A stretch of 64,000 nucleotides of DNA, taken from a plasmid. The stretch is from sequence record NZ_CP096760.1. One strand, given 5' to 3'. A program made the position numbers and the translations under genes. Shown here one piece after another: positions 12,474 to 30,184 of this stretch. Every line of letters starts with the position of its first letter. Within the stretch, counting starts at the first letter, position 1. Under the pieces are notes generated by a model. It saw only the letters and a list, made by a program, of their open reading frames with translations, ran no database searches and was not told where the DNA came from.

Positions 12474-12530
12474 AGGCGTTCAATTGAACGCCTTTATTAA
12501 TGCCCTGATCATACAGGGCTTTTTATGATT
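12474..12530 (+). terminator. tandem rho-independent terminators (perfect palindrome GGCGTTCAATTGAACGCC+TTTATT; GCCCTGATCATACAGGGC+TTTTTA)
   Basis: GC-rich stems followed by T-tracts directly after stop of 11993..12472. Confidence 0.7.
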
Positions 12531-13535: not shown

Positions 13536-13546
13536 TTTTGATTGCA

Positions 13547-13573
13547 ATAATAAGTAAGCACTTATTTATAATT
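13547..13573 (+). promoter_or_regulatory. palindromic promoter motif variant AATAATAAGTAAGCACTTATTTATAAT
   Basis: TATAAT at 13568-13573, 15 nt before ATG 13589. Lies inside the 5' extension of track ORF 13538. Confidence 0.55.
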
Positions 13574-13588
13574 AATGGGTATTACGTT

Positions 13589-14032: not shown

Positions 14033-14044
14033 AGGAGAAAAATA

Positions 14045-14557: not shown

Positions 14558-14689
14558 CACACTGAATCTTATTATTTTACTTTACCTACAACATCGCCAT
14601 CATTTCGCTTCTTATCCACACGGCGCTCAATAAACTACATACAGCAGCAAGAAAACTGCAATAACTTCAACTAATAAAGGTATGTAAGT

Positions 14690-15553
14690 ATGAACGCAAA
14701 AGCTACTAATCAAGTAAAAGATGATGAATTACTTATATCTAATCTTTTTGATCAACTTGATATTGATGAATCAGAACTCGACATGGCTTTAGAGCCAACA
14801 GCCGAATCTGCTGCTGTTCAAGATGAAAAGCTAATCGATGAAGAGTTGCATGATGTTGAGTTATTAGACGACTTAAATAACACTGAACTTGAAACACTCA
14901 TTAATGATGAAGAATTAGATTTAAGCCTTGAAGCAGAAGAAGTTGAAAATTCTGTTGTTTCAGATAAGAAAGTTACAGAGCCTGAGAAGTTAAAAACTGA
15001 GAATGTAACTGAAAAACAAGTACCTAAATCTACACAGCAACGTGTAACGCACTACAACTCTAAGAAGTCGGAAGTTTTACTAGACCGTCTAGGCGGTAGT
15101 GCAGACATGATTCTTCTTGAAGCGAGTGATATTGATTTACCAAATGACAAGCTTAAAGAAAAACAAGAAAACCTGTTACGTATCCTGAACAACCAACCGA
15201 CGGTAATTGGTACACGAGGTAATGTTGAGACAGTTCAAAAGAAAGTAGCTGAGAAGGTCATTATCTTGTTCACCTATTTCAAGAACGGTGGAAACTTAAA
15301 TAAGGTCATGAGAATCGCATTTGAGACGATTATTACAGATGGTTATATTACAACTGGTAAAGGTGGCAATCTATATAACAACCTGTTGAATGCACATTAC
15401 TCAGAAGGTACAGCGCGAGCGCAGGCGGGACAGATGCTCCAAATGTTCCCCCTATTGAAAATTGCAACAAAAGAAGGAAATAAGCTAATTCCAAATGAGC
15501 AGTCGCTAATTTTAGCCAAGATGAAAGCTGATCTCTTTCCAAGTGAAAAGTAA
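14690..15553 (+). CDS. hypothetical protein with extremely acidic N-terminal half
   Basis: About 110 aa of D/E/L-rich sequence, then a mixed C-terminal domain. Terminator hairpin GGGAGTGTCAAACTCCC+TTTATTTTTG at 15568-15598. Confidence 0.5.
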   Translation: MNAKATNQVKDDELLISNLFDQLDIDESELDMALEPTAESAAVQDEKLIDEELHDVELLDDLNNTELETLINDEELDLSLEAEEVENSVVSDKKVTEPEKLKTENVTEKQVPKSTQQRVTHYNSKKSEVLLDRLGGSADMILLEASDIDLPNDKLKEKQENLLRILNNQPTVIGTRGNVETVQKKVAEKVIILFTYFKNGGNLNKVMRIAFETIITDGYITTGKGGNLYNNLLNAHYSEGTARAQAGQMLQMFPLLKIATKEGNKLIPNEQSLILAKMKADLFPSEK

Positions 15554-15729
15554 TAGAAAAAAGCGGTAAAAAGGGAGTGTCAAACTCCCTTTATTTTTGC
15601 CTATGTCAAAAACACTATTTTCCTGCTTCTAATTTGCGCGCTAATTACGTTAAAAAAATTTTTATAAAGAAACACTCACGCTGAAAATAAAATTAAATCT
15701 AGCGCTTTACAACGCAAAATAGCACTTCT

Positions 15730-15754
15730 TATATATAAGCGCTTACTTATAAAT
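15730..15754 (+). promoter_or_regulatory. palindromic motif variant TATATATAAGCGCTTACTTATAAAT
   Basis: Same AAGCGCTTACT core with TATAAA -10-like; upstream of IS insertion. Confidence 0.45.
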
Positions 15755-15798
15755 ATTGTTATACTCTTTTAAAAATATAAAACAGTAGATAGAATCCA

Positions 15799-15824
15799 TA
15801 TTATTAGTTATCGCTTACTATATA
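15799..15824 (+). promoter_or_regulatory. palindromic motif variant ATTATTAGTTATCGCTTACTATATAT
   Basis: 38 bp upstream of IS5-family left end. Likely promoter orphaned by insertion. Confidence 0.45.
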
Positions 15825-15861
15825 TTTCCAGATAATTACATTTACTATTCACTCAACACTG

Positions 15862-16901
15862 GCTTTGTTGCACAAACCTAGCCTATAAGGTTTATTCAGT
15901 CCTATATTTCAAAATGAATAAACCTACTCCTAAAACTTATCGTACAACCAACTGGTCTTCCTATAATCGCGCTCTCATTAATCGGGGTAACATTTCCATT
16001 TGGTTTGATCCAAACACTCAGTGGTATGCACAACCACAAGACAAGCAAGGTCGAAATCAAACTTACTCCGATAAGGCTATTCAATGCTGTTTAATGATCA
16101 AATCTTTATTTAGACTCTCTTTACGCATGGTCACAGGTTTTGTTCAAAGTCTGATTAAACTTTGTGGATTAAATTGGACCGCACCAGATTACAGTACGCT
16201 TTGTCGAAGACAAAAACATATTAATATTGCGATTAGCTATCAAAAAAGTAGTGATGGGCTACATCTACTCGTCGACTCAACTGGCTTAAAGTTTCTAGGT
16301 GAAGGCGAGTGGAAACGTAAGAAACATGAACCTGAATATCGTTGCCAATGGCGTAAGCTTCATATTGGCATCGATGCTGAAACCTTGCAAATACGTGCAG
16401 TACAGCTTACTATAAATAATGTGAGCGATTCGCAAGTACTCGGTGATTTACTTGATCAAATCCCGTTGAATGAGCAGATTGATTCGGTCTATACCGATGG
16501 TGCTTATGACACGAAGCACTGCAGACAAGTCATTCTAGATCGAGATGCACATGCGGTCATTCCGCCAAGAAAAAATGCAAAACCATGGAAAGATCAGAAA
16601 TTGAGATCTTTAGAGCGGAATGAGTTACTGAAAACAGTTAAACGTTTAGGAAGAACGCTTTGGAAAAAATGGGCAGGCTATCATCGTCGAAGTTTAGTTG
16701 AAACCAAGATGCATTGCATCAAACTATTGGGGGATAAACTCAGTGCGAGAAACTTTCAGAGCCAAGTGAATGAGATTCATGCTCGTGTGGCAGTATTAAA
16801 TAAATTTACAGAATTAGGTCGTCCTCATACCCAAGTTGTCACTTGAATTCTGTTCAAATGAGCAGAGTGTTGTCTTTTAAATCTTTGTGCAACAAAGCCG
16901 C
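15862..16901 (+). mobile_element. IS5-family insertion sequence (intact copy), about 1040 bp with 16-21-bp terminal inverted repeats GGCTTTGTTGCACAAA
   Basis: IRL GGCTTTGTTGCACAAACCTA at 15862. IRR reverse-complement GGCTTTGTTGCACAAAGATTT ending 16901. Single DDE transposase ORF. Confidence 0.8.
15914..16846 (+). CDS. IS5-family (IS903/IS427-like) DDE transposase
   Basis: N-terminus YRTTNWSSYNRALINRGNISIWFD typical of IS5 family. DDE region DSTGLKF...YTDGAYD...E. Confidence 0.85.
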   Translation: MNKPTPKTYRTTNWSSYNRALINRGNISIWFDPNTQWYAQPQDKQGRNQTYSDKAIQCCLMIKSLFRLSLRMVTGFVQSLIKLCGLNWTAPDYSTLCRRQKHINIAISYQKSSDGLHLLVDSTGLKFLGEGEWKRKKHEPEYRCQWRKLHIGIDAETLQIRAVQLTINNVSDSQVLGDLLDQIPLNEQIDSVYTDGAYDTKHCRQVILDRDAHAVIPPRKNAKPWKDQKLRSLERNELLKTVKRLGRTLWKKWAGYHRRSLVETKMHCIKLLGDKLSARNFQSQVNEIHARVAVLNKFTELGRPHTQVVT

Positions 16902-17244
16902 TAACGACTAAAGTTTCACCGGCTTTAGGCTGACCAATGTCTAACAACCCCATATAAGCAGTAAATCCTGGCATTCCCAAAATATCCAATGCCCAAGATG
17001 GATGTTCAGGTTGCATACCTAAGCTTTGACATACAGTCCCATTAGAAATTGCGTAGCCCTGCCAGCCATTTCCTGAAAGAACCCACTCGCCTTCTTTGAA
17101 TTTTGGGTTTTTAGAGGCCACTACTTGACTGACTCTTCCACCGACCATCACTTCGCCAATTTCAACCGGTGCTGCATATGAGGGAGCATCACTCATGCGA
17201 CCACACATATAAGGATCGAGTGACAAGTAAATGGTCTTTAACAA
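16902..17244 (-). pseudogene. N-terminal fragment of NADPH-dependent curcumin/quinone reductase (MDR family, CurA/YncB-like) truncated by IS5 insertion
   Basis: LSLDPYMCGRM and following MDR N-domain. ORF 16825..17244 reads from the gene into the IS right end, so the C-terminal ~220 aa are missing. Confidence 0.6.
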
Positions 17245-17503
17245 TATCTCGCCTTATTTAAGTTCATTGAGTTCAACTTGCTCAATACGAAAATCGCTGT
17301 GTTTTGGCTCACCGAGTGGCCGTTTAGCTAAAACGATGCGTTGGTTAATAACTGTTTCCACTCGCATAACTCCATGTTTTGTATAAAAGTATTTCTATTG
17401 ATAATTGAGACTGTTGATTAAAACGTCTTTACATCAATTGTAGATGAGTTATAATAAAAAAAATACGACTGGTCTATTTTTTACAATAGAGTAAATAATT
17501 AAT

Positions 17504-18112
17504 ATGAAGCCTAATCCTATTAAAAAGTCTGAAGCGAAGCGCTTACACATTCTTAACACTAGTTCAGACCTGATTTTGCATAAAGGTTTTACCGGTGTAG
17601 GATTACAGGAAATTTTACAGAACTGTGAGATCCCCAAAGGCTCGTTTTATCATTACTTCCAATCCAAGGAAGCTTTCGGATGTGAATTGGTACAGCATTA
17701 TGTAGACAATTACCAAGTCCGTTTAAATGATGTATGGCGTAGTGATAAATCCCCTTATCAAAAGCTAATTGAGTATTTTAATTTATGGATAGAAGATCCT
17801 GTAACACAGTGTGGTTGGGCGGATAGCTGTTTAATTGTGAAACTTGCCGCAGAAGTTGCCGATCTATCTGAAGATATGCGCTCGATTATGTCCGCTGGCG
17901 TCGATGATGTAATCGAACGTATTGCTGGTTTAATTGATTTGGGAAAACAGGATCAGTCTATCCAGGCAGATACTGAGGCCTCGACGTTGGCACAAGTACT
18001 TTACCAAATGTGGTTAGGTGCAGCATTACTGAGTAAATTGCAAAAAGATAAAACACCATTACATCAAGCTCTGAGAGCAACTAAATTTCTATTAAAAAGT
18101 GAAGATTCATAA
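17504..18112 (+). CDS. TetR/AcrR-family transcriptional regulator
   Basis: N-terminal HTH LHKGFTGVGLQEILQNCEIPKGSFYHYFQSKEA. Confidence 0.8.
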   Translation: MKPNPIKKSEAKRLHILNTSSDLILHKGFTGVGLQEILQNCEIPKGSFYHYFQSKEAFGCELVQHYVDNYQVRLNDVWRSDKSPYQKLIEYFNLWIEDPVTQCGWADSCLIVKLAAEVADLSEDMRSIMSAGVDDVIERIAGLIDLGKQDQSIQADTEASTLAQVLYQMWLGAALLSKLQKDKTPLHQALRATKFLLKSEDS

Positions 18113-18216
18113 AAATTAGATTAAATATCAATTACATAATTAATGACAGCAGCCCAATGATTACTTATTAATGTGTTGCTATTAGATCAATTTACAATCC
18201 ATGAGTATAGCGCACA

Positions 18217-18447
18217 ATGAATTCTCCTTCTAAAGCCCTCATGTCTCGTATTTTAGTCGGATATTTAGGCTTATATCCCACACTATTACTGGTACTTACT
18301 TTATTAAAGCCAATTACTCAGCATCAAAGTTTCCCGATGATGGTGTTGATTGAAGTCATAGTATTAGTGCCAGTAACGCAACTGATTTCTTTCCCACTGG
18401 CAGGTTGGCTCATTACACAGCTAAAAAATTTTAAGAATTTGTTTTAA
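18217..18447 (+). CDS. small hydrophobic membrane protein
   Basis: Two predicted TM helices in 76 aa. Confidence 0.4.
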   Translation: MNSPSKALMSRILVGYLGLYPTLLLVLTLLKPITQHQSFPMMVLIEVIVLVPVTQLISFPLAGWLITQLKNFKNLF

Positions 18448-18530
18448 GAAGAATTTATGCTGGCAACAGCAATCCTAAGTCCTTATTTTGCCAACCACAA
18501 CGGTTGGCAAAATAACTCACTTAGTCAATA

Positions 18531-19658
18531 CTAATCTGCGTAAGCTGGATAATCAATATAGCCTTTTTCTGTCCCACCATACATAGTGCTTGCATCTACT
18601 GGATTCAATGGCCAGCCATTGGCGATGCGATCGGGTAAATCTGGATTCGCAATAAATGGGCGTCCAAATGCAATTAAATCGGCCAGTCCTGCCTCTAAAA
18701 TTCGAGTCCCTCTTTCTGCCGTATATCGACCTGCATAAATAATCCGACCACTGAAAGTGTCTCTGACATCTCTACGAAAATCATGAGGAAGTTCTGGTGC
18801 ATTATCCCAATCAGCTTCTGCAATCGATAAATAGGCAATCCCAACTTCTTCAAGTATTTTTATGGCTTCAATATAAGTCACATGTGGATCATCTTCAACC
18901 AACCCTATGTAAACACGATCTTCCTCTGTACTTTCAAATAGCGGGGCAAAACGCACTCCTAAACGATCTGCACCAACCACCTCAGCAACTGCCTCTACTA
19001 CTTCACGTAAAAAACGCAAACGATTGTTTAGTGATCCACCATATTCATCTTCACGGTGGTTACTATGTGCAGAGATAAATTGATTCACCAAATAACCATT
19101 TGCACAATGAATTTCAACTCCATCAAAACCAGCAGCCAAGGCATTGCGTGCTGCTTGAGCATAGAGTTGCACTAATTCTTTAACTTCTGCATTGCTTAAA
19201 GCACGTGGCATTGAAGGATCAGCCAAGGTCCCAGCATTAGGCCCGGTCTCAATAAACACTTTAACATTACTATCAGCCCTAATAGCCGAGGGTGCGACCG
19301 GTGATGCATGATTAGGTTGCAAAGATGTATGTGAAACACGCCCAACATGCCAAAGTTGTGCAAAAATAATGCCTCCTTTAGCATGCACTGCTTCAGTCAC
19401 TTTACGCCATCCAGCAATCTGTTCAGGGCTGTAAATACCGGGAGTCCAAGCATAGCCTTGACCACGTGGCTCGATTTGCGTACCTTCGGTGACCATAAAT
19501 CCTGCCCCGGCACGCTGTTGATAATAGGTTGCCATCAGTTCATTTGGAATATTCCCTGGCTGAGTACTGCGCGACCGCGTTAATGGTGGCAATACAATAC
19601 GGTTTCGCAAAACATAAGGGCCTAAGCTTAAGTTTTGAAAAAGTATGCTGTCTTTCAT
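18531..19658 (-). CDS. Old Yellow Enzyme family NADH:flavin oxidoreductase / alkene (N-ethylmaleimide) reductase
   Basis: OYE motifs PPLTRSRS, HCANGYLVNQF, GVRFAPL. 375 aa. Confidence 0.85.
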   Translation of the reverse strand: MKDSILFQNLSLGPYVLRNRIVLPPLTRSRSTQPGNIPNELMATYYQQRAGAGFMVTEGTQIEPRGQGYAWTPGIYSPEQIAGWRKVTEAVHAKGGIIFAQLWHVGRVSHTSLQPNHASPVAPSAIRADSNVKVFIETGPNAGTLADPSMPRALSNAEVKELVQLYAQAARNALAAGFDGVEIHCANGYLVNQFISAHSNHREDEYGGSLNNRLRFLREVVEAVAEVVGADRLGVRFAPLFESTEEDRVYIGLVEDDPHVTYIEAIKILEEVGIAYLSIAEADWDNAPELPHDFRRDVRDTFSGRIIYAGRYTAERGTRILEAGLADLIAFGRPFIANPDLPDRIANGWPLNPVDASTMYGGTEKGYIDYPAYAD

Positions 19659-19858
19659 TTCATTGTATCCAAGTAATCATGACTTAATTGATCTAAATTA
19701 AAAAATACCCTTCCTTCCTGTATATAGAAAAATAAAGGAAAGAAAGCTATTAACTCAGACCCTCCACCATTAAGTGAGGGTTATTTTGCTTATTGCACCC
19801 GTTGCTCAGAGTCAGAAGTTATTCACTGCTAAGCACCACAACAGACGCTAGCTACTCT

Positions 19859-20536
19859 TTATTTCAACAATTGAAGTAATGCTGTAGCAGTTGCAGCAGA
19901 AGAGGCTGGATTTTGTCCAGTAACCAGCAAGCCATCTACTTGAACATGTACTTGCCAATCATCTACTTTAGAATAATGACCACCATTTTCTTTAAGCATG
20001 TCTTCGACTAAAAATGGTACAATTTCAGTCAAGCCTACAGCAGCCTCCTCAGTATTGCTAAAACCAGTGACTAATTTACCGCTGACTAAAGGCGCTCCAT
20101 TACTCGCTTTCACATGACGAAGAACACCTGGGGCATGACACACTGCTGCAACAGGTTTGCCAGACTGAATCGCCTGTTCAATCAGAGAAATTGAAATCGG
20201 ATCTTCTGCTAAATCCCACAATGGACCATGCCCGCCTGGATAAAACACCGCATCATAATCAGCTACAGAAATTTCGCTAAGTTTATGCGTCTGTGCCAAT
20301 GCTTGCATTGCAGTTGGATCAGCTTCAAAACGATGAGTGGCTTCAGTTTGCGCATCGGCTAAATTACTTTTAGGATCTAGTGGTGGCTGCCCACCTTGAG
20401 GCGACGCCAGCGTAACTTCAGCACCAGAGTCAATAAAGATGTAATACGGTGCAGCAAGTTCTTCTAGCCAGAAACCTGTTTTCTTACCAGTATTGCCAAG
20501 TTGAACATGTGAGGTTAAAACGACTAAAATTTTCAT
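19859..20536 (-). CDS. DJ-1/PfpI-family (type 1 glutamine amidotransferase-like) protein
   Basis: AAVCHAPGVL nucleophile-elbow Cys. MKILVV start with GGAG SD at 20536; track ORF extends to 20572. Confidence 0.75.
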   Translation of the reverse strand: MKILVVLTSHVQLGNTGKKTGFWLEELAAPYYIFIDSGAEVTLASPQGGQPPLDPKSNLADAQTEATHRFEADPTAMQALAQTHKLSEISVADYDAVFYPGGHGPLWDLAEDPISISLIEQAIQSGKPVAAVCHAPGVLRHVKASNGAPLVSGKLVTGFSNTEEAAVGLTEIVPFLVEDMLKENGGHYSKVDDWQVHVQVDGLLVTGQNPASSAATATALLQLLK

Positions 20537-20620
20537 GTTATTTCTCCGATAATTTTCATGATTGAGGAGCATTGTTGCATGATCACTTGCTGTGTGGCGT
20601 GAGCATGCCAGATAGCTTAT

Positions 20621-21778
20621 TTAGATGCTCGTCGCAAGAATTTGGCGACTGATCTCTAATGAAACATTTTTGTGTTCGCCTAGCCGTGTCAGATTGTGTG
20701 ATTTAAGTTGCGTAATGATGATCTCAATATCTGTCTCCCCCAGTCCATAATCGCTAAGACGAGTCGGCAATCCAAGTTGCTCAAAGAAGGCTCGAGTACG
20801 AGCAATAGCCGTATCAATACGTTGTTCTTCATCACCTTCGACAATCTGCCAGACACGAGCTGCATACTGTAGTAATTTTTCTCGCTTCTCTTGACGACGC
20901 ACTTGTAGATTGGCCGGCAACACAATGGCCAAGGTACGAGCATGATCAATACCATGTAAAGCCGTGAGCTCATGTCCAATCAAATGGGTTGACCAATCTT
21001 GTGGTACACCAGCTCCAATCAGCCCATTCAGTGCCATGCTAGCAGACCACATCAAATTCGCACGCGTGTCATAATCTGCTGAATCTTCCAAGATTTTCGG
21101 TCCAATCTCAATCAGAGTTTGCAATAGACCTTCGGCAAAACGATCTTGTACTTGTGCATTCACAGGGTAAGTTAAGTACTGTTCAATGACATGAACAAAT
21201 GCATCCACCACGCCATTAGCCAACTGGCGCGTCGGCAAGCTAAAGCTTTTATTCGGATCTAGTACGGAAAATTGCGGAAAAACATAGGGACTGCTAAATG
21301 ACAATTTGGCTTGGGTCGATTTTCTGGTTACTACACCACCGCTATTCATTTCTGAACCAGTTGCCGGAAGGGTGAGTACACTCGCAAAAGGCAAAGCTTG
21401 AGTAATTTTAGTACCATGGGTTTCTAAAATCTCCCATGTATCCCCTGTATAATTGACTGCTGCTGCAATAAATTTAGTACCATCAATTACCGATCCACCA
21501 CCGACAGCCATCAAGAAATCAATCTTTTGTTCTCGAATCAGCTCTACAGCTTTCATGAGGGTTTCATAACTCGGATTCGGCTCAATTCCGCCAAATTCAT
21601 GAATTTCTCTTGCACCTAATGCTTCACGCACTTCAGCTAAAGTACCATTCTTACGTGCACTTTCACCACCAAATAACATTAACACTTTTGCTTCTGTAGG
21701 CACATAGTCATTGATTTCAGCTATTGTATCGCCACCAAAAATAATGCGGGTCGGATTATAAAAGTTAAAATTCAGCAT
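20621..21778 (-). CDS. iron-containing (group III) alcohol dehydrogenase, YqhD/butanol-dehydrogenase-like
   Basis: GGGSVIDGTK NAD(P)-binding motif and His-rich metal site; 385 aa. Confidence 0.85.
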   Translation of the reverse strand: MLNFNFYNPTRIIFGGDTIAEINDYVPTEAKVLMLFGGESARKNGTLAEVREALGAREIHEFGGIEPNPSYETLMKAVELIREQKIDFLMAVGGGSVIDGTKFIAAAVNYTGDTWEILETHGTKITQALPFASVLTLPATGSEMNSGGVVTRKSTQAKLSFSSPYVFPQFSVLDPNKSFSLPTRQLANGVVDAFVHVIEQYLTYPVNAQVQDRFAEGLLQTLIEIGPKILEDSADYDTRANLMWSASMALNGLIGAGVPQDWSTHLIGHELTALHGIDHARTLAIVLPANLQVRRQEKREKLLQYAARVWQIVEGDEEQRIDTAIARTRAFFEQLGLPTRLSDYGLGETDIEIIITQLKSHNLTRLGEHKNVSLEISRQILATSI

Positions 21779-22374
21779 ATTTTTATCCTAGGATGATCAG
21801 CTAATTGATTTGAAAAGCCACCGTTATTCATCAAATAAACTTTAAAAAATTGGACAATACTGTGGCTTTTGCCTACACCATGTGCTAACTATACATAAAA
21901 ATAGACCAGTCGTCTATTTTTTTAAAAAAATTATTTCAGCTTGCCAACTTGAGTGATGCTTAAACAAATTCAGGCTTGTTCTATACCACTTTTATTATTG
22001 ATGTATTTTCACGAGCGATTGTTGGATGGAAGATATCAACACGTATGACTATTGACATGGTCGTGAACGCATTGGCTGAAACAGTGAATGGCTCATAGAA
22101 AATAGCAATGATTAAATATTTTAAAAGCAGATTGGCAAGGTTTAGCAGATGTACAAATGCAGCGCTAAATTAGATAGATTGGTTCAATATAAGGCATGTG
22201 GATTCATTCGTTTATTTACCCTGTTTTGGATATTGACCCATGTAAACGATGAGATTAAGCCAATAAATAAAGTAGCCCAACTTGAATAAAAAGCCTCTGA
22301 CAAACATCATAGGGTTGAAGTGCTGCCTTACATTCAAAATTTCAGACAGCACCCTCATACATTTAAGCATAGGT

Positions 22375-22677
22375 TTAAGCTGGTAGTTTACTCGCCAAAA
22401 CATCTACTTTTTCAATAGATGGTGGCTCTGAAAATAGCTCTTCGGCCTGAGCCATCAACGCAGCTGCAACCTTGCCAGATAAATGCGCTTGGCGACCCGC
22501 CTCATCAGGAAATGCATCAAAAATACCAAATGTTGTAGGACCAAGACGAAGGCCAAACCACGCAACTGTCGCAGGTTCTTCCATTACAATAGGTAAACCG
22601 GCTTTAAGAAAAGCTTCCACTTCGTCTTCTTTACCCGGTTTAGCTTCAAGACGGACATATAAAGCTGTTTTAAGCAT
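22375..22677 (-). CDS. ABM-domain (antibiotic biosynthesis monooxygenase-like) protein, putative quinol monooxygenase
   Basis: 100-aa ferredoxin-like ABM pattern (LKTALYVRLEAKPGKEDEVEAFLK...). Confidence 0.65.
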   Translation of the reverse strand: MLKTALYVRLEAKPGKEDEVEAFLKAGLPIVMEEPATVAWFGLRLGPTTFGIFDAFPDEAGRQAHLSGKVAAALMAQAEELFSEPPSIEKVDVLASKLPA

Positions 22678-23000
22678 GACTAAAACTCCATAATTGATTA
22701 GAATTCAAACTGAATCTGACATTGCTAATGTATGCATGTCAGAAAGTTTTGTTGTATAAAAGTTAAAAAAATTTCCCATAGCTGAGCCAAAATTTAGATT
22801 TTTATTTCGACATAATGCTATGAATTTATTCAAGTTAATATCATTAACATTTGAATCAAAAATCAAGATATGAGATGATTAAATTCAATCTTAGTTATAT
22901 AAGGATCAATTGACTCTACCTTAGATTTATAAGCTGACCTCTTCATCTGGAGATTATATTGCTCAAGAAGCATTCAAGAACAACATGTATATCCTCATAT

Positions 23001-23846
23001 CTATGAAAGTTTTTTTGCTAGGAATTTGCTGTGAAACTCTATATGTTTCTCTATAAAGCTCGCAATGAAGTAATAGCTATGGTCATACCCTTCTCTTAGG
23101 TTAAGTGTAAGAGGATATTCTTGTTCCAAACAAATATCACTAAGCAGCTTAGGTCTTAACTGTTCTTCAAGAAAATCATCAGCTGTTCCCTGATCGACTA
23201 AAATAGGTAAATGAACTTCCGCGTTTTTGATTAATTCAATCGCATCATAGCTTTTCCATAAAGTTTCGTTTTCACCTAGGTAGTGTGTGAAAGCCTTTTT
23301 CCCCCAAGGTACTTGGCTAGGTGCAACAATTGGTGCAAAAGCAGAAATACTTTTATACAGCTCAGGGTTTTTTAACCCAATGACTAATGCACCATGACCA
23401 CCCATGCTATGCCCCATAATGCTTTGGACTTGGTTGGTCGGAAAATTCAGGTCAATCAGATTTCTGAGCTCTTCCACAATATAATCATACATTTTGAAAT
23501 GCTGTGACCAGGGTGCTTGTGTTGCATTCACATAGAATCCTGCACCTTGGCCTAAATCATAATCTGCATGATCTGGTACATCTTCTCCACGTGGGCTGGT
23601 ATCTGGTGCAACAATAATGACTTTATGTTCAGCCGCATACTTTTGTGCTCCGGCTTTAGTAATAAAGTTCTGTTCGTTGCAAGTCAGCCCTGATAACCAA
23701 TATAAAACTGGCAACCGCTCATCTTTGTCATGAGGTGGCAGATATATTGAGAATTTCATTGAACAGTTTAATGCTGTTGACTGATGGCAATACACTTCTT
23801 GCGATCCACCAAAAGAAGCATGTTTCTCAATTATTTCCATAATCAA
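23001..23846 (-). CDS. frmB: S-formylglutathione hydrolase (esterase D family)
   Basis: GHSMGGHGAL nucleophile elbow. YLSGLTC and DQG/DHSY motifs. Directly downstream of frmA. Confidence 0.85.
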   Translation of the reverse strand: MIMEIIEKHASFGGSQEVYCHQSTALNCSMKFSIYLPPHDKDERLPVLYWLSGLTCNEQNFITKAGAQKYAAEHKVIIVAPDTSPRGEDVPDHADYDLGQGAGFYVNATQAPWSQHFKMYDYIVEELRNLIDLNFPTNQVQSIMGHSMGGHGALVIGLKNPELYKSISAFAPIVAPSQVPWGKKAFTHYLGENETLWKSYDAIELIKNAEVHLPILVDQGTADDFLEEQLRPKLLSDICLEQEYPLTLNLREGYDHSYYFIASFIEKHIEFHSKFLAKKLS

Positions 23847-24068
23847 TTACCTATGTTGAGCAAGACTTCATGAGAAATCGAGTAAACAAAGAGTCTGTCA
23901 TTCTCCACAGAGAATAGTGATTAAGATTTAAAATGTAGGCAGGTTTGTTGAACCTATACACGATGCCTACACAGATAGATGGGTTTTACAGATAATGTGC
24001 CGTTTTAGAGGATTCCATGCATGTCATTCATGATGCACATGCATGGAAAACTATAAGGTCTGACGGAA

Positions 24069-25202
<1,134 letters not shown>

Positions 25203-25478
25203 CTATTTTAAATATGATTTTAGAATCTTGGCGATTTCAGCCAATTCTTCTTTTCGTTGTTGTTCTGTGGTTTCACCTGATACTAAAGTGTCCTTTAAAT
25301 GAACCTCTAACATCTCATTCATTAGACCATTAATAGCACCACGCACAGAGCATATTTGTTGCAGAATCGCACCACATTCCACATTGTCTTCTAGCGCTTT
25401 TTCAATCGCTTGTGTCTGACCTTTGATCTTTCTGACGCGTAGAAGAATCTTTTTTTTGTCTTCAACCTGATTAGGCAT
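25203..25478 (-). CDS. frmR: FrmR-type formaldehyde-responsive repressor (CsoR/RcnR family)
   Basis: 91 aa, RVRKIKGQTQAIEKALE and HLKDT helix-bundle signature. Heads frmRAB operon. Confidence 0.8.
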   Translation of the reverse strand: MPNQVEDKKKILLRVRKIKGQTQAIEKALEDNVECGAILQQICSVRGAINGLMNEMLEVHLKDTLVSGETTEQQRKEELAEIAKILKSYLK

Positions 25479-25668
25479 CAGACCTCCTTATTTGCTAGCA
25501 TTGATACTATAGTACCCCATAGTATAAGAAAAGCAATATTTTTTATAAATCGAAAATCAAAAAGACCTTTAGCGAAAATTTTCTATCCCTGTTTTTAGTT
25601 TTTTTAAATTAACATCGTAGAGCTGATGATGTGTGCTGAAATAACAGAACACTTTCACTTAGGATATT

Positions 25669-26538
25669 CTAGGCAACCAACTTATAAAAGTCCTCTGCCA
25701 TTTGATTTGGTGTCTTAAAATCCAGTCCTTTCTGAATTCTCTGCTGATTATAAAATAGCTCTATGTATTTTGTAATATCTGCTTTGGCTTCTTCCCTCGT
25801 TTTATAATTGCGATGATGCACCAATTCGTTCTTTAATATTCCCCAGAAACTTTCAATTGGAGCATTATCATAACAGTCTCCTTTCTTACTCATCGAACCA
25901 TGAAATCCATATTTTTCAATCATGTTACGATATTCATGACTGCAATATTGACTGCCTCTGTCTGAGTGAACAATTAATCCTTGTGGTGGTTTGCGATTCC
26001 TAATTGCCATATTCAGTGCATTGCAGACAAGTTGGGCTGTCATACGTTCACTTAAGCTATAACCAACCACTTGTTTGGTACAAAGGTCTTTTAAAGCCGC
26101 TAGATACAGCCATCCTTCAGCTGTCCATATGTATGTAATGTCACTTACCCACGCAATGTTGGGAGTAGTCGCTGTAAAGTTTTGCTCTAACAAATTGTTG
26201 TAAACAGAACGACTGTGATCGCTATTTGTTGTCCTTTTAAAACGTTTATGACGTTTACAATACAGTTGATTTAGCCTTTTTATACAACGGACTGCATACG
26301 CGCTAATTTGAGTGCCTTGTGACTGTAAGTACTTCGTTAAGCGAATATGACCATAACTTTCTTTAGTTTCTTGATGGGCTATTTTGACAAAGATTGTCTG
26401 TTGGTTTCTTTGAATAGCTCGTTTACTTAAGCCTTGCTTTACCCAATCATAAAACCTTGATATTGAAACTTTAAGCAGTCTAGCCATCATCGTTGTTGGG
26501 TAGGTGTTTTTGTACTCTTTCATGTAAGCGTACCTCAC
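25669..26538 (-). CDS. IS3-family transposase OrfB (DDE integrase core)
   Basis: DDE core WVSDITYI...HSDRGSQY...E. Overlaps orfA in -1 frame. Confidence 0.8.
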   Translation of the reverse strand: MRYAYMKEYKNTYPTTMMARLLKVSISRFYDWVKQGLSKRAIQRNQQTIFVKIAHQETKESYGHIRLTKYLQSQGTQISAYAVRCIKRLNQLYCKRHKRFKRTTNSDHSRSVYNNLLEQNFTATTPNIAWVSDITYIWTAEGWLYLAALKDLCTKQVVGYSLSERMTAQLVCNALNMAIRNRKPPQGLIVHSDRGSQYCSHEYRNMIEKYGFHGSMSKKGDCYDNAPIESFWGILKNELVHHRNYKTREEAKADITKYIELFYNQQRIQKGLDFKTPNQMAEDFYKLVA

Positions 26539-26833
26539 TGATTTTCCTTGGCAAAGTACGCTGCTGCTTTTTTAGAAACTCTTTCTCCATTTCGGCAGTT
26601 TTGAGTTGTTGTTTGAGCTTTTTATTTTCTTCGAGCAGAGCAACGAGGTCAGGTGAATATTGTTGTGTTCCCTCTAATGTTCCTGCTTTTGCTTTATTAT
26701 ACCAATTCGACAGCGTTTGCATGGAAACACCAAGTTGTCGTGCTGTTTCCGAGACATTTCCTTGATTTAACTCAATAGCCTTGATTGCTTCAGCTTTAAA
26801 TTCTGCCGTATAAATCTTTTGTTTTTTGCTCAT
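26480..26833 (-). CDS. IS3-family transposase OrfA (HTH)
   Basis: YTAEFKAEAIKAIELNQGNVSETARQLGVSMQTLSNW typical IS3 OrfA. Confidence 0.8.
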   Translation of the reverse strand: MSKKQKIYTAEFKAEAIKAIELNQGNVSETARQLGVSMQTLSNWYNKAKAGTLEGTQQYSPDLVALLEENKKLKQQLKTAEMEKEFLKKQQRTLPRKISEVRLHERVQKHLPNNDDG

Positions 26834-26907
26834 GGTAAACTCCTGATGAGTATGTTTAGCTTACCAAGTTAAAGTCTCCGTTTTTGTCAGCACACATCAC
26901 ATTCAGA

Positions 26908-27387
26908 AGGTTACTTATAATTAAAATGGATTTCTCCATACATACTGATCATACAGTCACGCTTGAATTATTAAAAACCTACCTTCGAATGTTCATCAAA
27001 AAACTTCATGCACCGAATGATAAAGTTCCACCCATTGTCGGTTTTGTTTGGAAATTAGAATACTCAGTATTAAAAAGTTACCACTATCATTTCCTATTTT
27101 TCATGGATGCGAATACTTTTACAGAAGATAAAAACTTTGCCTATAAACTTGGTGAATTATGGCAAAAAATAACCTTAAAAAAAGGAATCTATCAAAGCTT
27201 CAATCATGAAGAGCAAGTACGTAAAAATCTTGCTATTGGTATACTCACTCATGATGATCAAGAAAAAATTGACTCTCTAAATAAGATGATTTATCACATA
27301 ACCAAAACAGAGCAGTTCATTCTTGAAAGAAGCCAAATTAATCAACGAACATTTGGCTACAGCACCCGCAAGTATGCAACAAGGTAA
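26908..27387 (+). pseudogene. C-terminal remnant of YagK/YfjJ (inovirus Gp2-like) family protein, N-terminus removed by IS3 insertion
   Basis: Motif VGFVWKLEYSVLKSYHYHFLFFMD matches family hallmark GY.WKLE..G.HYH. Reading frame continues out of IS end. Confidence 0.5.
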
Positions 27388-27634
27388 GTTGAATACTTTA
27401 TAAAGATTTAGCTAGATGTTTCTTTAATTCTGTTCTTTTCTATTCATTCGACACATAAGGTCACGAATTACGTAAACCCTATATAAGTTTATTTTTTAAA
27501 CAGTTGAATACCTTATTTCATACATTAATTTACAGCGTGCCGTTTCATCCTAAGGCTCTAATACAAGTGTTTTTTAATTCTTGGCAGCCTTGCTAGGAGT
27601 CTGTTTAATGTTGAACTAGAAAGAGGAAATCCGC

Positions 27635-28798
27635 ATGCGTGCTCTTACCTATCATGGTGCTAGGGATGTACGAGTTGAATCTGTTCCAGATCCAGTGATT
27701 CAGGAACCAGATGACGTTATTTTAAGGGTGACAGCCACCGCCATCTGTGGCTCAGATCTGCATTTATACCGGGGAAAAATCCCGGCCACTGAAGACGGTG
27801 ATATTTTCGGCCATGAATTTATGGGAATTGTAGAAGAAGTCGGCCCAGAAGTAACCGAAGTCAAAAAAGGTGATCGGGTAATTATTCCCTTTGTGATTGC
27901 ATGCGGTCACTGTTTTTTCTGTGAACATGAACTCATGGCTGCCTGTGAAAATACCAATACCGGCCGTGGTGCAATTCTCAATAAAAAACAGATCCCACCA
28001 GGGGCAGCTTTATTTGGCTTTAGCCATTTGTATGGTGGTATACCGGGTGGTCAAGCTGAATATGTGCGGATCCCCAAGGGCAATGTCGGACCATTTAAAG
28101 TGCCAGGCTCCCTGCCTGATGAAAAAGTATTATTCCTGACCGATATTCTACCAACCGCCTGGCAAGCAGTAAACAATGCCCAAGTTGGTCGAGGTTCCAG
28201 TGTGGCGATTTATGGTGCTGGCCCAGTCGGTCTGCTGGCTGCTGCCTGTGCGCGGATGCTCGGTGCCGAGCAGATTTTTATGGTCGATCACCATCCTTAT
28301 CGTCTGCGTTTCGCACATCAAACCTATGGAGTGATTCCGGTCAATTTTGATGAAGTCGATGCCGCTGAATTTATCATTCAAAATACCACGGGTTATCGTG
28401 GAGTCGATGCCGTCATTGATGCGGTCGGTTTTGAAGCCAAAGGCAGCATGCTGGAAACCGTAATGACTAACCTGAAATTAGAAGGTTCGAGTGGTTCAGC
28501 GTTAAGACAATGTATTGCAGCGGTCCGCCGCGGCGGTGTGGTGAGTGTACCTGGAGTTTATGCCGGTCCAATTCATGGCTTCCTGTTTGGTGATGCCTTT
28601 GACAAAGGTTTAACCTTTAAAATGGGACAAACTCATGTGCATAATTACTTGCCGCAGTTGCTAGAACATATTGAAAATGGAGATCTGTCTCCAGATCTGA
28701 TCATTACCCATCGCATGAAACTGGAAGATGCTGCGGAAGGTTACCGTATTTTTGATAAAAAAGAAGAAGACTGTCGTAAAGTGATTCTGACGCCATAA
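27635..28798 (+). CDS. fdhA: glutathione-independent zinc formaldehyde dehydrogenase (MDR family)
   Basis: MRALTYHG N-terminus. CGSDLH zinc motif. [10 protein letters not shown] structural-zinc Cys cluster. GAGPVGL Rossmann motif. 387 aa. Confidence 0.85.
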
Positions 28799-28811
28799 AT
28801 ATGATTAAATG

Positions 28812-28841
28812 AAAGCGCCGTCAGGCGCTTTTTTATTTTTT
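28812..28841 (+). terminator. rho-independent terminator AGCGCCGTCAGGCGCT+TTTTTATTTTTT
   Basis: Hairpin plus T-tract 14 nt after fdhA stop. Confidence 0.7.
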
Positions 28842-28870
28842 ATCATCATTTTATCAATCCTCTTTTTCTT

Positions 28871-29928
28871 GTTTTTAAGGGCTTTGTTGCACAAAGATTT
28901 GAAATGCAAAGCGCCCCTAATTGAGCCAAATTTAAGGCGTAACTTGGGTAAGTGGTCGACCTAATTCCGTAAATCTGTTAAGGACTGCTACACGTGCATG
29001 GATCTCATTCACTTGGCTATCAAAACTCCTTGCACTGAGTTTATCCCCTAATAATTTAATGCAGTTCATCTTAGTTTCAACCAAACTTCGCCGATGATAG
29101 CCTGACCATTTTTTCCATAGTGTCCTGCCTAAACGCTTAACTGTTCGAAGTAATTCATTTCGCTCTAGCGAGCTACTCTTTGTATCTTTCCATGGTTTCG
29201 CATTTTTTCTAGGTGGAATCACCGCATGCGCTTGCCGATCTGCAATGACCTGACGGCATTGCTTGGTGTCATAAGCTCCATCGGTATAAACAGAGTCAAT
29301 CCTCTCATCTTGTGGAATCTGATTAAGTAAATCACCAAGCACCTGTGAATTACTGACATTATTGGTTGTAAGCTGAACTGCTCGTATTTGTAGGGTTTTA
29401 GAATCTATGCCAATATGAAGTTTACGCCATTGGCGACGATATTCAGGTCCATGTTTCTTGCGTTTCCATTCGCTCTCACCTAGAAACTTCATGCCTGTAG
29501 AGTCCATGAGTAGATGCAGCCCATCGCTACTTTTTTGGTAGCTGATTACAATATCAATATGCTTTTGTCTTCTACAAAGCGTGGTGTACGAATATCACTG
29601 ATATTCGGGGCTGCTCATCCGCAAAGTTTAATCAGACTTTGCAAAAAGCCAGTAACCATACGTAAAGTCAGACGGAATAAGGATTTAATCATTAAGCAGC
29701 ATTCGATGGCTGCGTCGGAGTATGTTTGATTTCGCCCTTGTTTGCCTTTTGATGGAGCATACCATTGCGTAGCAGGATCAAACCAAATGGCAATATTTCT
29801 GCGACTCATGAGTGCTCGGTTATATGCTGGCCAATTGGTTGTGCGGTAGATTTTCTGTGTAGGCTTCTTCATTTGAAAATTATATCGCTGAAAAAGCCGT
29901 TACAGATAGGTTTGTGCAACAAAGCCCA
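28871..29928 (-). mobile_element. second, diverged IS5-family copy in inverted orientation (transposase disrupted)
   Basis: Same terminal IRs GGCTTTGTTGCACAAAGATTT (28871) and GGCTTTGTTGCACAAACCTA (rc at 29928). Transposase split into 85-aa and 191-aa ORFs by a ~108-bp disrupted segment. Confidence 0.75.
28932..29872 (-). pseudogene. IS5-family transposase, frameshifted/disrupted (about 75-80% aa identity to 15914..16846 by eye)
   Basis: N-terminal part 29615..29872 (YRTTNWPAYNRALMSRRNIAIWFD) and C-terminal part 28932..29507 are in different frames, separated by non-coding-looking sequence. Confidence 0.7.
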
Positions 29929-30108
29929 TCGAGTGCTAAATTGCTTGCATTACTTGCAATGGCATCTGCCAAACGCCCTCTTCAATATAATTATACTCCC
30001 ATATTACAAGCTTTATATCTATCTAGTTATCTACATTTCTATATTCCTATATTACTACATAACAATATTGAAAGTTACTTATAAAACAATATAATATCCT
30101 AACTATAT

Positions 30109-30184
30109 TGCGTAGTAGCTCAGTAGGTAGAGCAGCGGACTGTTAATCCGTTGGTCACTGGTTCGAACCCAGTCTACGCAGCCA
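30109..30184 (+). tRNA. tRNA-Asn (anticodon GTT)
   Basis: Cloverleaf folded by hand. Acceptor TGCGTAG/CTACGCA. D-arm GCTC-AGTAGGTA-GAGC. Anticodon stem GCGGA/TCCGT with loop CTGTTAA. T-arm ACTGG-TTCGAAC-CCAGT. Discriminator G and encoded CCA. Confidence 0.85.

What the first reader, a model, noticed from the sequence alone, without database searches (positions are those of the whole stretch)
15862..29928. About 14-kb composite-transposon-like insertion (two inverted IS5-family copies) carrying an aldehyde/electrophile detoxification island inside the phage
Two IS5-family elements share the same terminal repeats (GGCTTTGTTGCACAAA...). They are in inverted orientation (15862-16901 intact, 28871-29928 with broken transposase) and bracket non-phage cargo:
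- truncated curA-like reductase
- TetR
- OYE ene-reductase
- DJ-1/PfpI
- Fe-ADH
- ABM
- frmR-frmA-frmB (glutathione-dependent formaldehyde detox)
- fdhA (glutathione-independent formaldehyde dehydrogenase)
- a nested IS3

The cargo lacks the phage promoter motif entirely. The insertion sits between phage promoter motifs (15730, 15799) and the tRNA-Asn they probably served.

A phage or phage-plasmid carrying two independent formaldehyde detox routes plus reactive-electrophile reductases would be a transducible stress-resistance module (possibly disinfectant or aldehyde biocide tolerance).
Basis: partly seen in the sequence, partly recalled or inferred. Interest (0 to 1): 0.62.

Follow-up and report, generated by a model that had tools for sequence, protein, structure and literature searches.

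The report
IS-flanked aldehyde-detox island in phage-plasmid hotspot
A known block of aldehyde and formaldehyde detoxification genes from Acinetobacter plasmids sits between two related insertion sequences at a spot in a phage-plasmid where relatives carry other cargo, and it most likely arrived by recombination at resident insertion sequences, not as a jumping composite transposon.

Summary
Window 15861-29926 (14,066 bp) is bounded by two inverted IS5-family elements. IS-left (15861-16899) is intact. IS-right (28880-29926) has a broken transposase. The cargo is a truncated curA, a TetR, OYE, DJ-1, Fe-ADH, ABM, frmR-frmA-fghA, a nested IS3 and a Zn-ADH.

- The two IS are different species (78% nt identity).
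- No pair of IS ends carries the 9-bp target duplication that this IS group makes elsewhere.
- Both outer junctions already exist in relatives with different cargo (17 and 24 plasmid records). That cargo includes type I R-M systems, a mer operon, a giant adhesin and another redox island.
- The cargo is the published "ADH segment" of GR13 Acinetobacter plasmids (98.8% over 8.66 kb).
- IS-right is chimeric: its inner end matches the GR13 copies and its outer end matches the resident copies.

The best reading is cargo exchange at an IS-anchored hotspot of AB-group phage-plasmids, through IS homology or cointegration followed by an IS-mediated deletion.

The "fdhA" fails the curated model (188 vs 637 bits), so two independent formaldehyde routes are not shown. 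The tRNA-Asn has its own promoter.

The sequence is already public at 99-100% identity. Interest is low to moderate.

The parts
15861..16899 (+). IS-left: an intact IS5-family (IS903-group, ISAha2-like) insertion sequence of 1039 bp. The transposase ORF is 15914-16846.
   Evidence: Inverted-repeat tips seen. Pfam PF13737 + PF01609. 96% identical over 922 bp to an element RefSeq calls 'ISAha2 family' in pAR3651_1. Its left junction CACTCAACACT|GGCTTTG is shared by 17 plasmid records.
16900..17360 (-). Truncated curA-like NADPH-dependent reductase remnant (N-terminal part only), cut by IS-left.
   Evidence: PF16884. NF058644 CurA model positions 34-148 only. The gene is full length (1020 bp) in pDETAB13, CP133718 and p3ABAYE.
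17461..17477 (.). Putative TetR (CurR-like) operator half-palindrome in the curA'-tetR divergent intergenic region. It pairs with the site at 21901-21917.
   Evidence: Inverted repeat I6. Motif ATAGACCAGTCGTCTAT gives 3 matches (2 sites; the palindromic site matches on both strands) against 0.11 matches expected. The regulatory role is inferred.
17504..18112 (+). TetR/AcrR-family regulator (CurR-like).
   Evidence: PF00440 + PF16925. NF058643 scores 196.9 bits, below the 300 cut-off.
18531..19658 (-). Old Yellow Enzyme / N-ethylmaleimide-reductase-like alkene reductase.
   Evidence: PF00724, E = 1.5e-85. NF007899 NemA subfamily scores 400.5 against a cut-off of 403.
19859..20572 (-). DJ-1/PfpI-family protein (possible glyoxalase III or deglycase).
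   Evidence: PF01965. Only weak NCBIfam hits.
20621..21778 (-). Iron-containing alcohol dehydrogenase, YqhD-like aldehyde reductase.
   Evidence: PF00465 + PF25137. NF011717 scores 611 against a cut-off of 645.
21901..21917 (.). Perfect palindrome ATAGAC-CAGTC-GTCTAT upstream of the Fe-ADH operon. This is the second putative TetR operator.
22375..22677 (-). 100-aa ABM-like protein.
   Evidence: No Pfam or NCBIfam hit. RefSeq WP_000920558.1 is annotated as 'antibiotic biosynthesis monooxygenase'.
23001..23846 (-). fghA/frmB, S-formylglutathione hydrolase.
   Evidence: TIGR02821 scores 415.7 bits, above the 281.7 cut-off. PF00756.
24069..25181 (-). frmA/adhC, S-(hydroxymethyl)glutathione dehydrogenase (class III ADH).
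   Evidence: TIGR02818 scores 727.1 bits, above the 543.95 cut-off.
25203..25478 (-). FrmR/RcnR-family repressor next to frmA.
   Evidence: PF02583. NF008464 FrmR scores 104.5, below the 133 cut-off.
25627..26899 (-). Nested IS3-family element (orfA 26480-26833, orfB 25669-26538). It has no target duplication. It sits in the interval 25550-27397, which in GR13 plasmids is occupied instead by about 4.6 kb of different sequence.
   Evidence: 34-nt inverted repeats I5. PF01527 and PF00665. Flanks read. Only 80-83% identical to any other plasmid IS, all of the ISAba21 family. Homology to GR13 plasmids breaks at 25549 and resumes at 27398.
26884..27387 (+). YagK/YfjJ-C-like ('inovirus Gp2-type') ORF fragment.
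   Evidence: PF11726, E = 6e-6. RefSeq annotation.
27635..28798 (+). Zinc-dependent alcohol dehydrogenase, distantly FDH-like. It is not a confirmed fdhA.
   Evidence: TIGR02819 scores 187.6 against a cut-off of 636.95. Best solved match is 4cpd (generic ADH); FDH 1kol scores 148.6 bits. The 27398-28879 module occurs in 52 plasmid records, and in all listed rows the match ends at the IS-right boundary.
28880..29926 (-). IS-right: an IS5-family (IS903-group, IS17-like ends) element of 1047 bp with a disrupted transposase. It is chimeric. The inner end matches copies next to the Zn-ADH in GR13 plasmids. The outer ~85 bp matches copies resident at this junction in other phage-plasmids.
   Evidence: Mismatch profile. 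The outer junction AAAGCC|CATCGAGTGC is found in 24 plasmid records. The inner junction cttgtttttaag|GGCTTTG is identical in L005, L009 and L010.
30068..30184 (+). tRNA-Asn (30109-30184) with its own sigma-70-like promoter (30068-30095), immediately right of the hotspot.
   Evidence: ARAGORN. TTGAAA-16-TATAAT, 11 of 12 positions.

Best explanation
**What it is.** The segment is an IS-bounded accessory island. It is a shortened version of the 'ADH segment' that circulates on GR13-type Acinetobacter plasmids. It occupies a conserved variable locus of an AB-group (pABTJ2/ZW85p2-like) Acinetobacter phage-plasmid, between a 287-aa phage ORF and the tRNA-Asn.

**The locus.** IS5-family ends are fixed to the backbone on both sides of this locus, and the DNA between them differs from plasmid to plasmid.

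**How it most likely arrived (inferred):**
1. A resident IS at the right junction recombined with the related IS that lies next to the Zn-ADH gene on a GR13-type plasmid. That produced a cointegrate or a replacement.
2. The resident ISAha2-like IS at the left junction then made an adjacent deletion into curA. That removed the rest of the donor and left no target duplication.

**What it probably does (inferred from family membership, not tested).**
- frmA and fghA, under the adjacent FrmR/RcnR-family repressor, oxidise formaldehyde via glutathione.
- A TetR regulator with two matching palindromic sites probably controls the YqhD-like aldehyde reductase, the DJ-1 protein and the NemA-like ene-reductase.
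- Together these would raise tolerance to formaldehyde and reactive electrophiles.
For: - **Known plasmid.** The window is 99.1% identical over 21 kb to A. baumannii plasmid NZ_CP038645.1. The backbone carries phage genes.
- **Known cargo.** Window 16896-25549 is 98.8% identical to pDETAB13, where Moran et al. named the ADH segment (PMC9455709).
- **No target duplication.** None of the four IS ends pair, while control copies of the same IS group have 9-bp duplications.
- **Old left junction.** It is shared by 17 records: 3 with the full IS, 13 with a 165-bp MITE-like derivative, and 1 interrupted by ISAba22.
- **Old right junction.** It is shared by 24 records whose backbone flanks are as low as 90.6% identical.
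- **Alternative cargo at the same locus:**
  - type I R-M systems
  - R-M plus a mer operon between two IS5 elements
  - R-M plus a giant ESPR adhesin
  - R-M plus a TetR/OsmC/OYE/DsbA island
  - Tat genes
  - nothing
- **Donor signature.** The IS-right inner junction is identical to that in GR13 plasmids.
- **Chimeric IS-right.**
  - Innermost 75 columns: 1 mismatch to the GR13 copies against 13-24 to most resident copies.
  - Outermost ~85 columns: 2 mismatches to every resident copy against 7-12 to the GR13 copies.
- **Fusions exist.** CP069498 carries two replicons. CP133718 carries a 37-kb GR13-like block.
- **Possible precursor layout.** A GR13 plasmid has an ISAha2 copy, in the same orientation, about 9.3 kb (locus coordinates) from curA.
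- **Function.** NCBIfam calls and the operator-like palindromes.
Against: - The order of events is inferred. No intermediate with the donor fused at this exact locus was found.
- The resident IS of plas2_LRB resembles IS-right along its whole length although it carries different cargo. The crossover point therefore cannot be fixed.
- p3ABAYE, a GR13 plasmid, has the same outer-end sequence.
- The only 'empty' site (CP133718) looks like a deletion, not a pristine target.
- pDETAB4 has no IS at the left junction. This points to additional inversions that I did not resolve.
- No expression or phenotype data exist for this island.
- A. baumannii already has native adhC genes (cited in PMC13436141). 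The added benefit is therefore uncertain.
Confidence: 0.62

Rival explanations
1. It is a genuine composite (compound) transposon. The IS-left transposase acted on the two outer inverted repeats and inserted the 14-kb unit into the phage-plasmid. The target duplication was later lost.
For: Two related IS903-group elements lie in inverted orientation with identical 16-nt outer tips. IS-left has an intact transposase. Analogous IS5-bracketed modules exist at the same locus, such as the mer operon in p2LMG994.
Against: There is no 9-bp duplication at the outer ends, although this IS group leaves one. The same outer junctions occur in 17 and 24 records with other cargo, which would require repeated insertion at the identical nucleotide. 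The unit is found nowhere else. The two IS are only 78% identical, and one has a broken transposase.
Confidence: 0.12
2. The island is the ancestral content of this locus. An early phage-plasmid acquired it once, and the R-M, mer, adhesin and other cargos in relatives are later replacements.
For: IS-left is full length only in the island-bearing lineage, whereas most relatives have a deleted MITE-like derivative of it. This could mean the island lineage keeps an older state of the left IS.
Against: The island at this locus is confined to 3-4 nearly identical records at 98.5-100% identity. The junctions span backbones that differ by up to about 9%. The curA truncation junction is unique to the lineage. 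The island is about 99% identical to GR13 copies, which suggests recent acquisition.
Confidence: 0.1
3. Assembly artefact: the island was mis-joined into the phage-plasmid through repeated IS copies.
For: IS-bounded regions are classic mis-assembly sites.
Against: The same structure and all four junctions are present in two complete circular plasmid records from independent isolates (CP038645, CP139838). The left part is present in a third, incomplete record (CP033864).
Confidence: 0.02

Closest known systems
'ADH segment' of GR13 Acinetobacter plasmids (Moran et al. 2022, PMC9455709; pDETAB13, p3ABAYE)
   Same: The same genes in the same order: TetR, OYE, amidotransferase-like DJ-1, Fe-ADH, ABM, fghA, class III ADH and frmR. 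Identity is 98.8% over 8.66 kb to pDETAB13 and 96.4% to p3ABAYE. It is IS-flanked there too.
   Different: Here curA is truncated by an ISAha2-like IS. The GST, PPC and integrase genes to the left are absent. The frmR-to-Zn-ADH spacer is replaced by an IS3 element plus a YagK-like fragment. The host replicon is a phage-plasmid, not a GR13 plasmid.
AB-group phage-plasmids (Pfeifer et al. 2021, PMC7969092; pABTJ2, ZW85p2, pAbNCIMB8209_134)
   Same: The backbone is collinear with the fetched stretches of ZW85p2, pDETAB4, plas2_LRB and CP038645.1 (98-99% where compared at window 9.5-14 kb; about 88-99% across 12-33 kb). A glutathione-dependent formaldehyde pathway on a plasmid of this family was already noted for pAbNCIMB8209_134 (PMC7392541).
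   Different: In this lineage the island sits at the tRNA-Asn-proximal hotspot. In CP133718 it lies about 16 kb upstream (other records: CP027182 and CP133708 about 19 kb by coordinates), within a larger GR13-derived block in CP133718.
Compound transposons of the IS903 group (for example Tn903, from general knowledge)
   Same: Two inverted IS903-group elements bracket cargo, and their terminal repeats are the same.
   Different: There is no 9-bp target duplication. The flanking IS are non-identical (78%). One transposase is defective. There is no second insertion site. It is better called a pseudo-compound or IS-bounded segment.
Mobile formaldehyde-resistance elements Tn6901/Tn6399/Tn7489 and plasmid pAsaXII (bioRxiv 10.1101/2022.09.12.507718)
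   Same: A mobile frmR-frmA-frmB cluster on a plasmid. Aldehyde biocides are the proposed selection.
   Different: Those are described there as transposons with no relation to IS5-flanked segments, occur in Enterobacteriaceae or Aeromonas, and include gloA. This island instead adds OYE, YqhD-like and DJ-1 genes under a TetR regulator.

Membership tests
Composite (compound) transposon | Two copies of the same or a cross-recognised IS flank the cargo, with matching outer terminal repeats. | tested here: met
   The outer tips GGCTTTGTTGCACAAA are identical. Overall the IS are only 78% identical.
Composite (compound) transposon | A target-site duplication (9 bp for this IS group) flanks the whole unit. 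| tested here: not met
   CTCAACACT on the left against CATCGAGTG on the right. Control copies in L009 and L010 show perfect 9-bp duplications. No partner duplication was found in 19 loci.
Composite (compound) transposon | The same unit is found at different sites or in different replicons. | tested here: not met
   The full unit is present only in CP038645 and CP139838, with part of it in CP033864, always at the same site.
Composite (compound) transposon | Relatives show a precise empty site. | tested here: not met
   CP133718 joins ACTATTCACTC|TGCAATGG and lacks 34 bp that are present on both sides in the window. The other relatives carry IS ends at the same junctions.
Composite (compound) transposon | At least one functional transposase. 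| tested here: inconclusive
   The IS-left ORF is intact with DDE domains, but its activity was not tested. The IS-right ORF is broken.
IS5 family, IS903 group | DDE_Tnp_1 transposase, length of about 1.04 kb, terminal inverted repeats of about 16-18 bp, and 9-bp duplications. | tested here: met
   PF13737 + PF01609. Lengths of 1039 and 1047 bp with the inverted repeats. 9-bp duplications are seen for sibling copies. RefSeq labels relatives as the ISAha2, IS17 and ISAba13 families. ISfinder naming was not possible.
Glutathione-dependent formaldehyde detoxification (frmRAB / adhC-fghA) | S-(hydroxymethyl)glutathione dehydrogenase above the curated cut-off. | tested here: met
   TIGR02818 scores 727.1 against 543.95.
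Glutathione-dependent formaldehyde detoxification (frmRAB / adhC-fghA) | S-formylglutathione hydrolase above the curated cut-off. | tested here: met
   TIGR02821 scores 415.7 against 281.7.
Glutathione-dependent formaldehyde detoxification (frmRAB / adhC-fghA) | A formaldehyde-sensing FrmR repressor. | tested here: inconclusive
   NF008464 scores 104.5 against a cut-off of 133. It is in the FrmR/RcnR family and lies next to frmA. The ligand was not tested.
Glutathione-dependent formaldehyde detoxification (frmRAB / adhC-fghA) | It confers formaldehyde tolerance. | not testable with these tools
   This needs an MIC comparison.
Glutathione-independent formaldehyde dehydrogenase (FdhA, TIGR02819) | A score above the equivalog cut-off. 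| tested here: not met
   187.6 bits against 636.95. P. putida FDH 1kol scores only 148.6 bits, below the generic ADH 4cpd at 221.9.
AB-group phage-plasmid | Phage head, tail and packaging genes together with plasmid maintenance genes on one replicon. | tested here: met
   TerL, portal, major head and tape measure. ParB and RepM are annotated in collinear relatives. All relatives are typed rep_cluster_718.
AB-group phage-plasmid | It produces infectious or transducing particles. | not testable with these tools
   No phage of this group is known (PMC7969092). The backbone has no match in 50,697 phage records.
pdif (XerC/D) module | Flanking 28-bp pdif sites. | tested here: not met
   No match to TTCGYATAA-N6-TTATGTTAA with up to 3 mismatches anywhere in the window.

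The most novel reading that the evidence does not exclude
The tRNA-Asn-proximal locus of AB-group phage-plasmids may work as an IS-anchored cassette-exchange site. IS5-family ends fixed to the backbone would serve as portable homology, letting these elements repeatedly swap in plasmid-borne cargo: R-M systems, mer, adhesins, and redox or aldehyde stress islands. If the elements form particles, that cargo could then move by infection. This would be a recombination-based analogue of integron or pdif cassette systems, hosted on a phage.
Probability: 0.3. Interest if true: 0.55.

Novelty: new member of a known kind. Interest (0 to 1): 0.3.

Why it matters
Phage-plasmids can move genes both as plasmids and, potentially, as phages. 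This case shows that an Acinetobacter phage-plasmid family takes up ready-made accessory blocks from GR13 plasmids at a recurrent IS-marked locus. Here the block is an aldehyde and electrophile detoxification island.

If the island confers tolerance to aldehyde disinfectants, and if the element is infectious, that would be a route for spreading biocide tolerance in a hospital pathogen.

The cargo, the host family and the sequence itself are already public. The added value is the corrected mechanism (recombination at resident IS, not composite transposition) and the recognition of the hotspot.

Tried and rejected
- **Target duplications.** I looked for them in every pairing of the four IS ends and found none.
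- **Relocated duplication partner.** I searched all fetched loci for one (GCAACAAAGCC+CTCAACACT; CATCGAGTG+GGCTTTGTTGC) and found none.
- **pdif/Xer module boundaries.** None in the window.
- **Related phage genomes.** Megablast of 40-62 kb against 50,697 phage records gave no match. The 12-33 kb query hit only IS, adhC and tRNA fragments, mostly in 'Acinetobacter phage MD-2021a' contigs.
- **First look for a crossover in IS-right**. It was ambiguous because p3ABAYE shares the outer end. A second comparison that included the IS copies resident at the right junction gave the clearer chimeric pattern.
- **CP133718 as a true empty site.** Rejected. It lacks 34 bp that flank the hotspot in all other relatives, and elsewhere it has lost part of the phage backbone.
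- **Full inversion and deletion history linking ZW85p2, pZHOU-1 and pDETAB4**. I could not resolve it.
- **Not run.** Large protein-database, structure-prediction and RNA tools, because family assignments were already clear.

Full report
**1. What is there**

The window is part of an Acinetobacter baumannii phage-plasmid. Region 12000-33000 is 99.1% identical over its full length to plasmid NZ_CP038645.1 (116 kb). The window is not that record, because the two differ upstream of 10757.

The backbone encodes a terminase large subunit, portal, major head protein, an 1862-aa tape measure, ribonucleotide reductase, an SbcC-like nuclease and a helicase. Collinear relatives are ZW85p2, pDETAB4, pZHOU-1 and pAbNCIMB8209_134, all typed rep_cluster_718. 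This is the pABTJ2-like 'AB group' of phage-plasmids (PMC7969092; PMC7392541).

**2. Checking the observation**

IS-left spans 15861-16899 and IS-right spans 28880-29926. They are inverted and have identical 16-nt tips.
- IS-left has an intact 310-aa DDE transposase.
- The IS-right transposase is split by a small indel that its ortholog in pDETAB13 lacks.
- The two are different IS species of one group: 77-81% DNA identity and 79-86% protein identity.
- IS-left is 96% identical to an element RefSeq labels 'ISAha2 family'.
- The outer end of IS-right resembles 'IS17 family' elements.

The cargo list is confirmed, with two corrections.
- The 387-aa 'fdhA' scores 187.6 bits against a cut-off of 636.95 for glutathione-independent formaldehyde dehydrogenase. 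Its best solved relative is a generic ADH. It is a Zn-ADH of unknown specificity.
- FrmR falls below its equivalog cut-off (104.5 against 133), although it lies next to frmA.

frmA and fghA pass their cut-offs clearly. The backbone motif CGCTTACT occurs 17 times against 1.6 expected and is absent from the cargo. It is often part of the palindrome AGTAAGCGCTTACT.

**3. The cargo is a known module**

Window 16896-25549 is 98.8% identical to pDETAB13, 98.9% to CP133718 and 96.4% to p3ABAYE. Moran et al. named this the 'ADH segment' of GR13 plasmids and found variants in 30 of 43 of them (PMC9455709).

In those plasmids curA is full length. The block is preceded by integrase, PPC and GST genes and is followed by the Zn-ADH, an IS5-family element and uvrA.

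The window version differs in three ways.
- IS-left truncates it within curA.
- Different sequence (an IS3-family element that lacks a target duplication, plus a YagK-like fragment) occupies the frmR-to-Zn-ADH spacer.
- Its Zn-ADH module is more diverged, at 94-98%.

**4. Test of the composite-transposon idea**

This IS group makes 9-bp duplications. Two sibling copies show perfect ones: TATCAGAGA and CTTTTCTTT.

In the window the four flanks are CTCAACACT | IS-left | GCTAACGAC and GTTTTTAAG | IS-right | CATCGAGTG. No pairing matches. No displaced partner was found either.

The full unit occurs only in CP038645 and CP139838, plus the incomplete CP033864, always at this site.

**5. The locus is a hotspot with fixed IS ends**

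*Left junction.* The backbone|IS-left junction is present in 17 plasmid records. Three have the full IS. Thirteen have a 165-bp MITE-like derivative made of 76 bp from the left end and 89 bp from the right end. One has the IS end interrupted by ISAba22.

*Right junction.* The IS-end|CATCGAGTGC junction is present in 24 records. Their backbone flanks go down to 90.6% identity, so the junction is old.

*States of the locus in relatives:*

| Plasmid | Content between the junctions |
|---|---|
| ZW85p2 | type I R-M, an IS5-family element, a 216-aa ORF |
| pZHOU-1 | MITE-like element plus the 216-aa ORF |
| pDETAB4 | inverted R-M with Abi plus a hybrid MITE; no IS at the left junction |
| p2LMG994 | R-M, then a mer operon between two inverted IS5-family elements |
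| pAb4294, pDETAB1 | R-M, OmpA and a giant ESPR adhesin |
| plas2_LRB | R-M plus a TetR/OsmC/thioredoxin/OYE/DsbA/LeuE island |
| pAbNCIMB8209_134 | ISAba22, Tat genes and others |
| CP133718 | nothing; a deletion-like join |

The outer junctions therefore predate the island. Only the inner content varies.

**6. How the island most likely got there (inferred)**

The IS-right inner junction (cttgtttttaag|GGCTTTG) is the one seen in GR13 plasmids. Its outer junction is the one seen in phage-plasmids.

A column-by-column comparison shows that IS-right is chimeric.

| Part of IS-right | Mismatches to GR13 copies next to the Zn-ADH | Mismatches to copies resident at the right junction |
|---|---|---|
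| Innermost 75 columns | 1 | 13-24 (plas2_LRB: 2) |
| Outermost ~85 columns | 7-12 | 2 |

This is the expected product of homologous recombination between a donor IS and a resident IS.

IS-left keeps the old left junction, but its inner end abuts a unique breakpoint in curA with no duplication. That is the signature of an IS-mediated adjacent deletion. The alternative is recombination with an unsampled ISAha2 insertion in curA.

Fusions between GR13 plasmids and this phage-plasmid family exist. CP069498 carries both replicons. CP133718 carries a 37-kb GR13-like block bounded by ISAba26 and ISAba13. One GR13 plasmid has an ISAha2 copy, in the matching orientation, about 9.3 kb (locus coordinates) from curA.

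I rate this two-step model at about 0.6. A composite transposition with a lost duplication gets about 0.12, an ancestral island about 0.1, and an assembly artefact about 0.02.

**7. Function (inferred from family membership)**

frmA and fghA provide glutathione-dependent oxidation of formaldehyde. The adjacent FrmR/RcnR-family repressor probably makes them inducible.

A CurR-like TetR regulator has two matching sites. One lies at 17461-17477 in the curA'-tetR intergenic region. The other, a perfect palindrome at 21901-21917, lies upstream of the Fe-ADH, DJ-1 and OYE genes. This suggests a second, electrophile-responsive unit.

Plasmid-borne frm clusters confer formaldehyde resistance in other bacteria (cited). 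A. baumannii also has native adhC genes (cited), so the benefit here may be one of dosage or regulation. No phenotype was tested.

**8.

The tRNA-Asn has its own TTGAAA-16-TATAAT promoter at 30068-30095, downstream of the island. Most relatives also carry insertions at this locus. The island therefore does not orphan the tRNA.

Transducibility is hypothetical. No phage of the AB group is known, and the backbone matches nothing in the phage collection.

**9. Novelty and verdict**

The sequence is public. The cargo is a named segment, the host family is described, and a formaldehyde pathway on such a plasmid has already been noted.

I found no paper describing the IS-anchored hotspot or this placement of the ADH segment. 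That part is a modest new observation.

Overall this is a new member of a known kind, an IS-bounded accessory island acquired by recombination. Interest is about 0.3.

Noticed in passing
window 3591-3604, 6448-6461, 47990-48003, 62022-62035 and single copies at 15740, 15812, 30625, 34926, 50637, 55030, 61759, 63191: The backbone motif CGCTTACT occurs 17 times against 1.6 expected. It is often part of the 14-bp palindrome AGTAAGCGCTTACT in intergenic regions. That looks more like the operator of a phage-plasmid regulator than a plain promoter. It is absent from the island.
   Followed up: partly
window 10756/10757: This is a second variable junction. Upstream of this point CP038645.1 carries an NmrA-family gene plus a 240-bp IS5-family end fragment. 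ZW85p2 and pDETAB4 carry tet(B)/tetR and sul2 there. The window and plas2_LRB have contiguous backbone.
   Followed up: partly
window 17461-17477 and 21901-21917: A palindromic motif (ATAGAC-CAGTC-GTCTAT) occurs at two sites in the window, against 0.11 matches expected. One copy is in the curA'-tetR intergenic region. The other is about 120 bp upstream of the Fe-ADH gene. These are probably operators of the island's TetR regulator.
   Followed up: partly
window 25627-26899: An IS3-family element with 34-nt inverted repeats is only 80-83% identical to any other plasmid IS (ISAba21 family). It is found identically only in the two sister plasmids. It is probably an unnamed IS, and it lacks a target duplication.
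   Followed up: partly
window 21976-22098: A short ORF resembling an IS3-type integrase-core fragment (…DVFSRAIVGWKIS…) lies in the Fe-ADH-to-ABM spacer. It is an old IS remnant that GR13 copies of the ADH segment share.
   Followed up: no
window 30068-30095: A near-consensus sigma-70 promoter (TTGAAA-16-TATAAT, 11 of 12) lies 13 nt upstream of the tRNA-Asn.
   Followed up: yes
L007 (pAbNCIMB8209_134) 3653-16082: A heat-resistance island (clpK, hdeD-GI, yfdX2, trx-GI, Hsp20) lies between two inverted ISAba13-family copies, just upstream of the hotspot's left flank. It too has no matching 9-bp flanks.
   Followed up: partly
L011 (p2LMG994) 8258-15041; L012/L015; L016 15001-22159: Other cargos at the same hotspot are bounded on the right by the same IS junction. 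They are a complete mer operon, a 3,500-4,660-aa ESPR autotransporter adhesin with OmpA, and a TetR/OsmC/CMD/SDR/thioredoxin/OYE/DsbA/LeuE redox-stress island.
   Followed up: partly
L009 (NZ_CP069498.1) and L005/L018/L019 (NZ_CP133718.1): These records fuse GR13-plasmid DNA with the phage-plasmid backbone. One is typed with both replicons. The other has a 37-kb GR13-like block replacing the phage DNA-metabolism genes, so it is probably a defective phage-plasmid.
   Followed up: partly
phage collection hits H1-H8: Records named 'Acinetobacter phage MD-2021a' (CAKLQF/CAKLQH contigs, up to 144 kb) carry adhC, frmR, ggt and IS elements. They look like bacterial genome contigs filed as phage.
   Followed up: no
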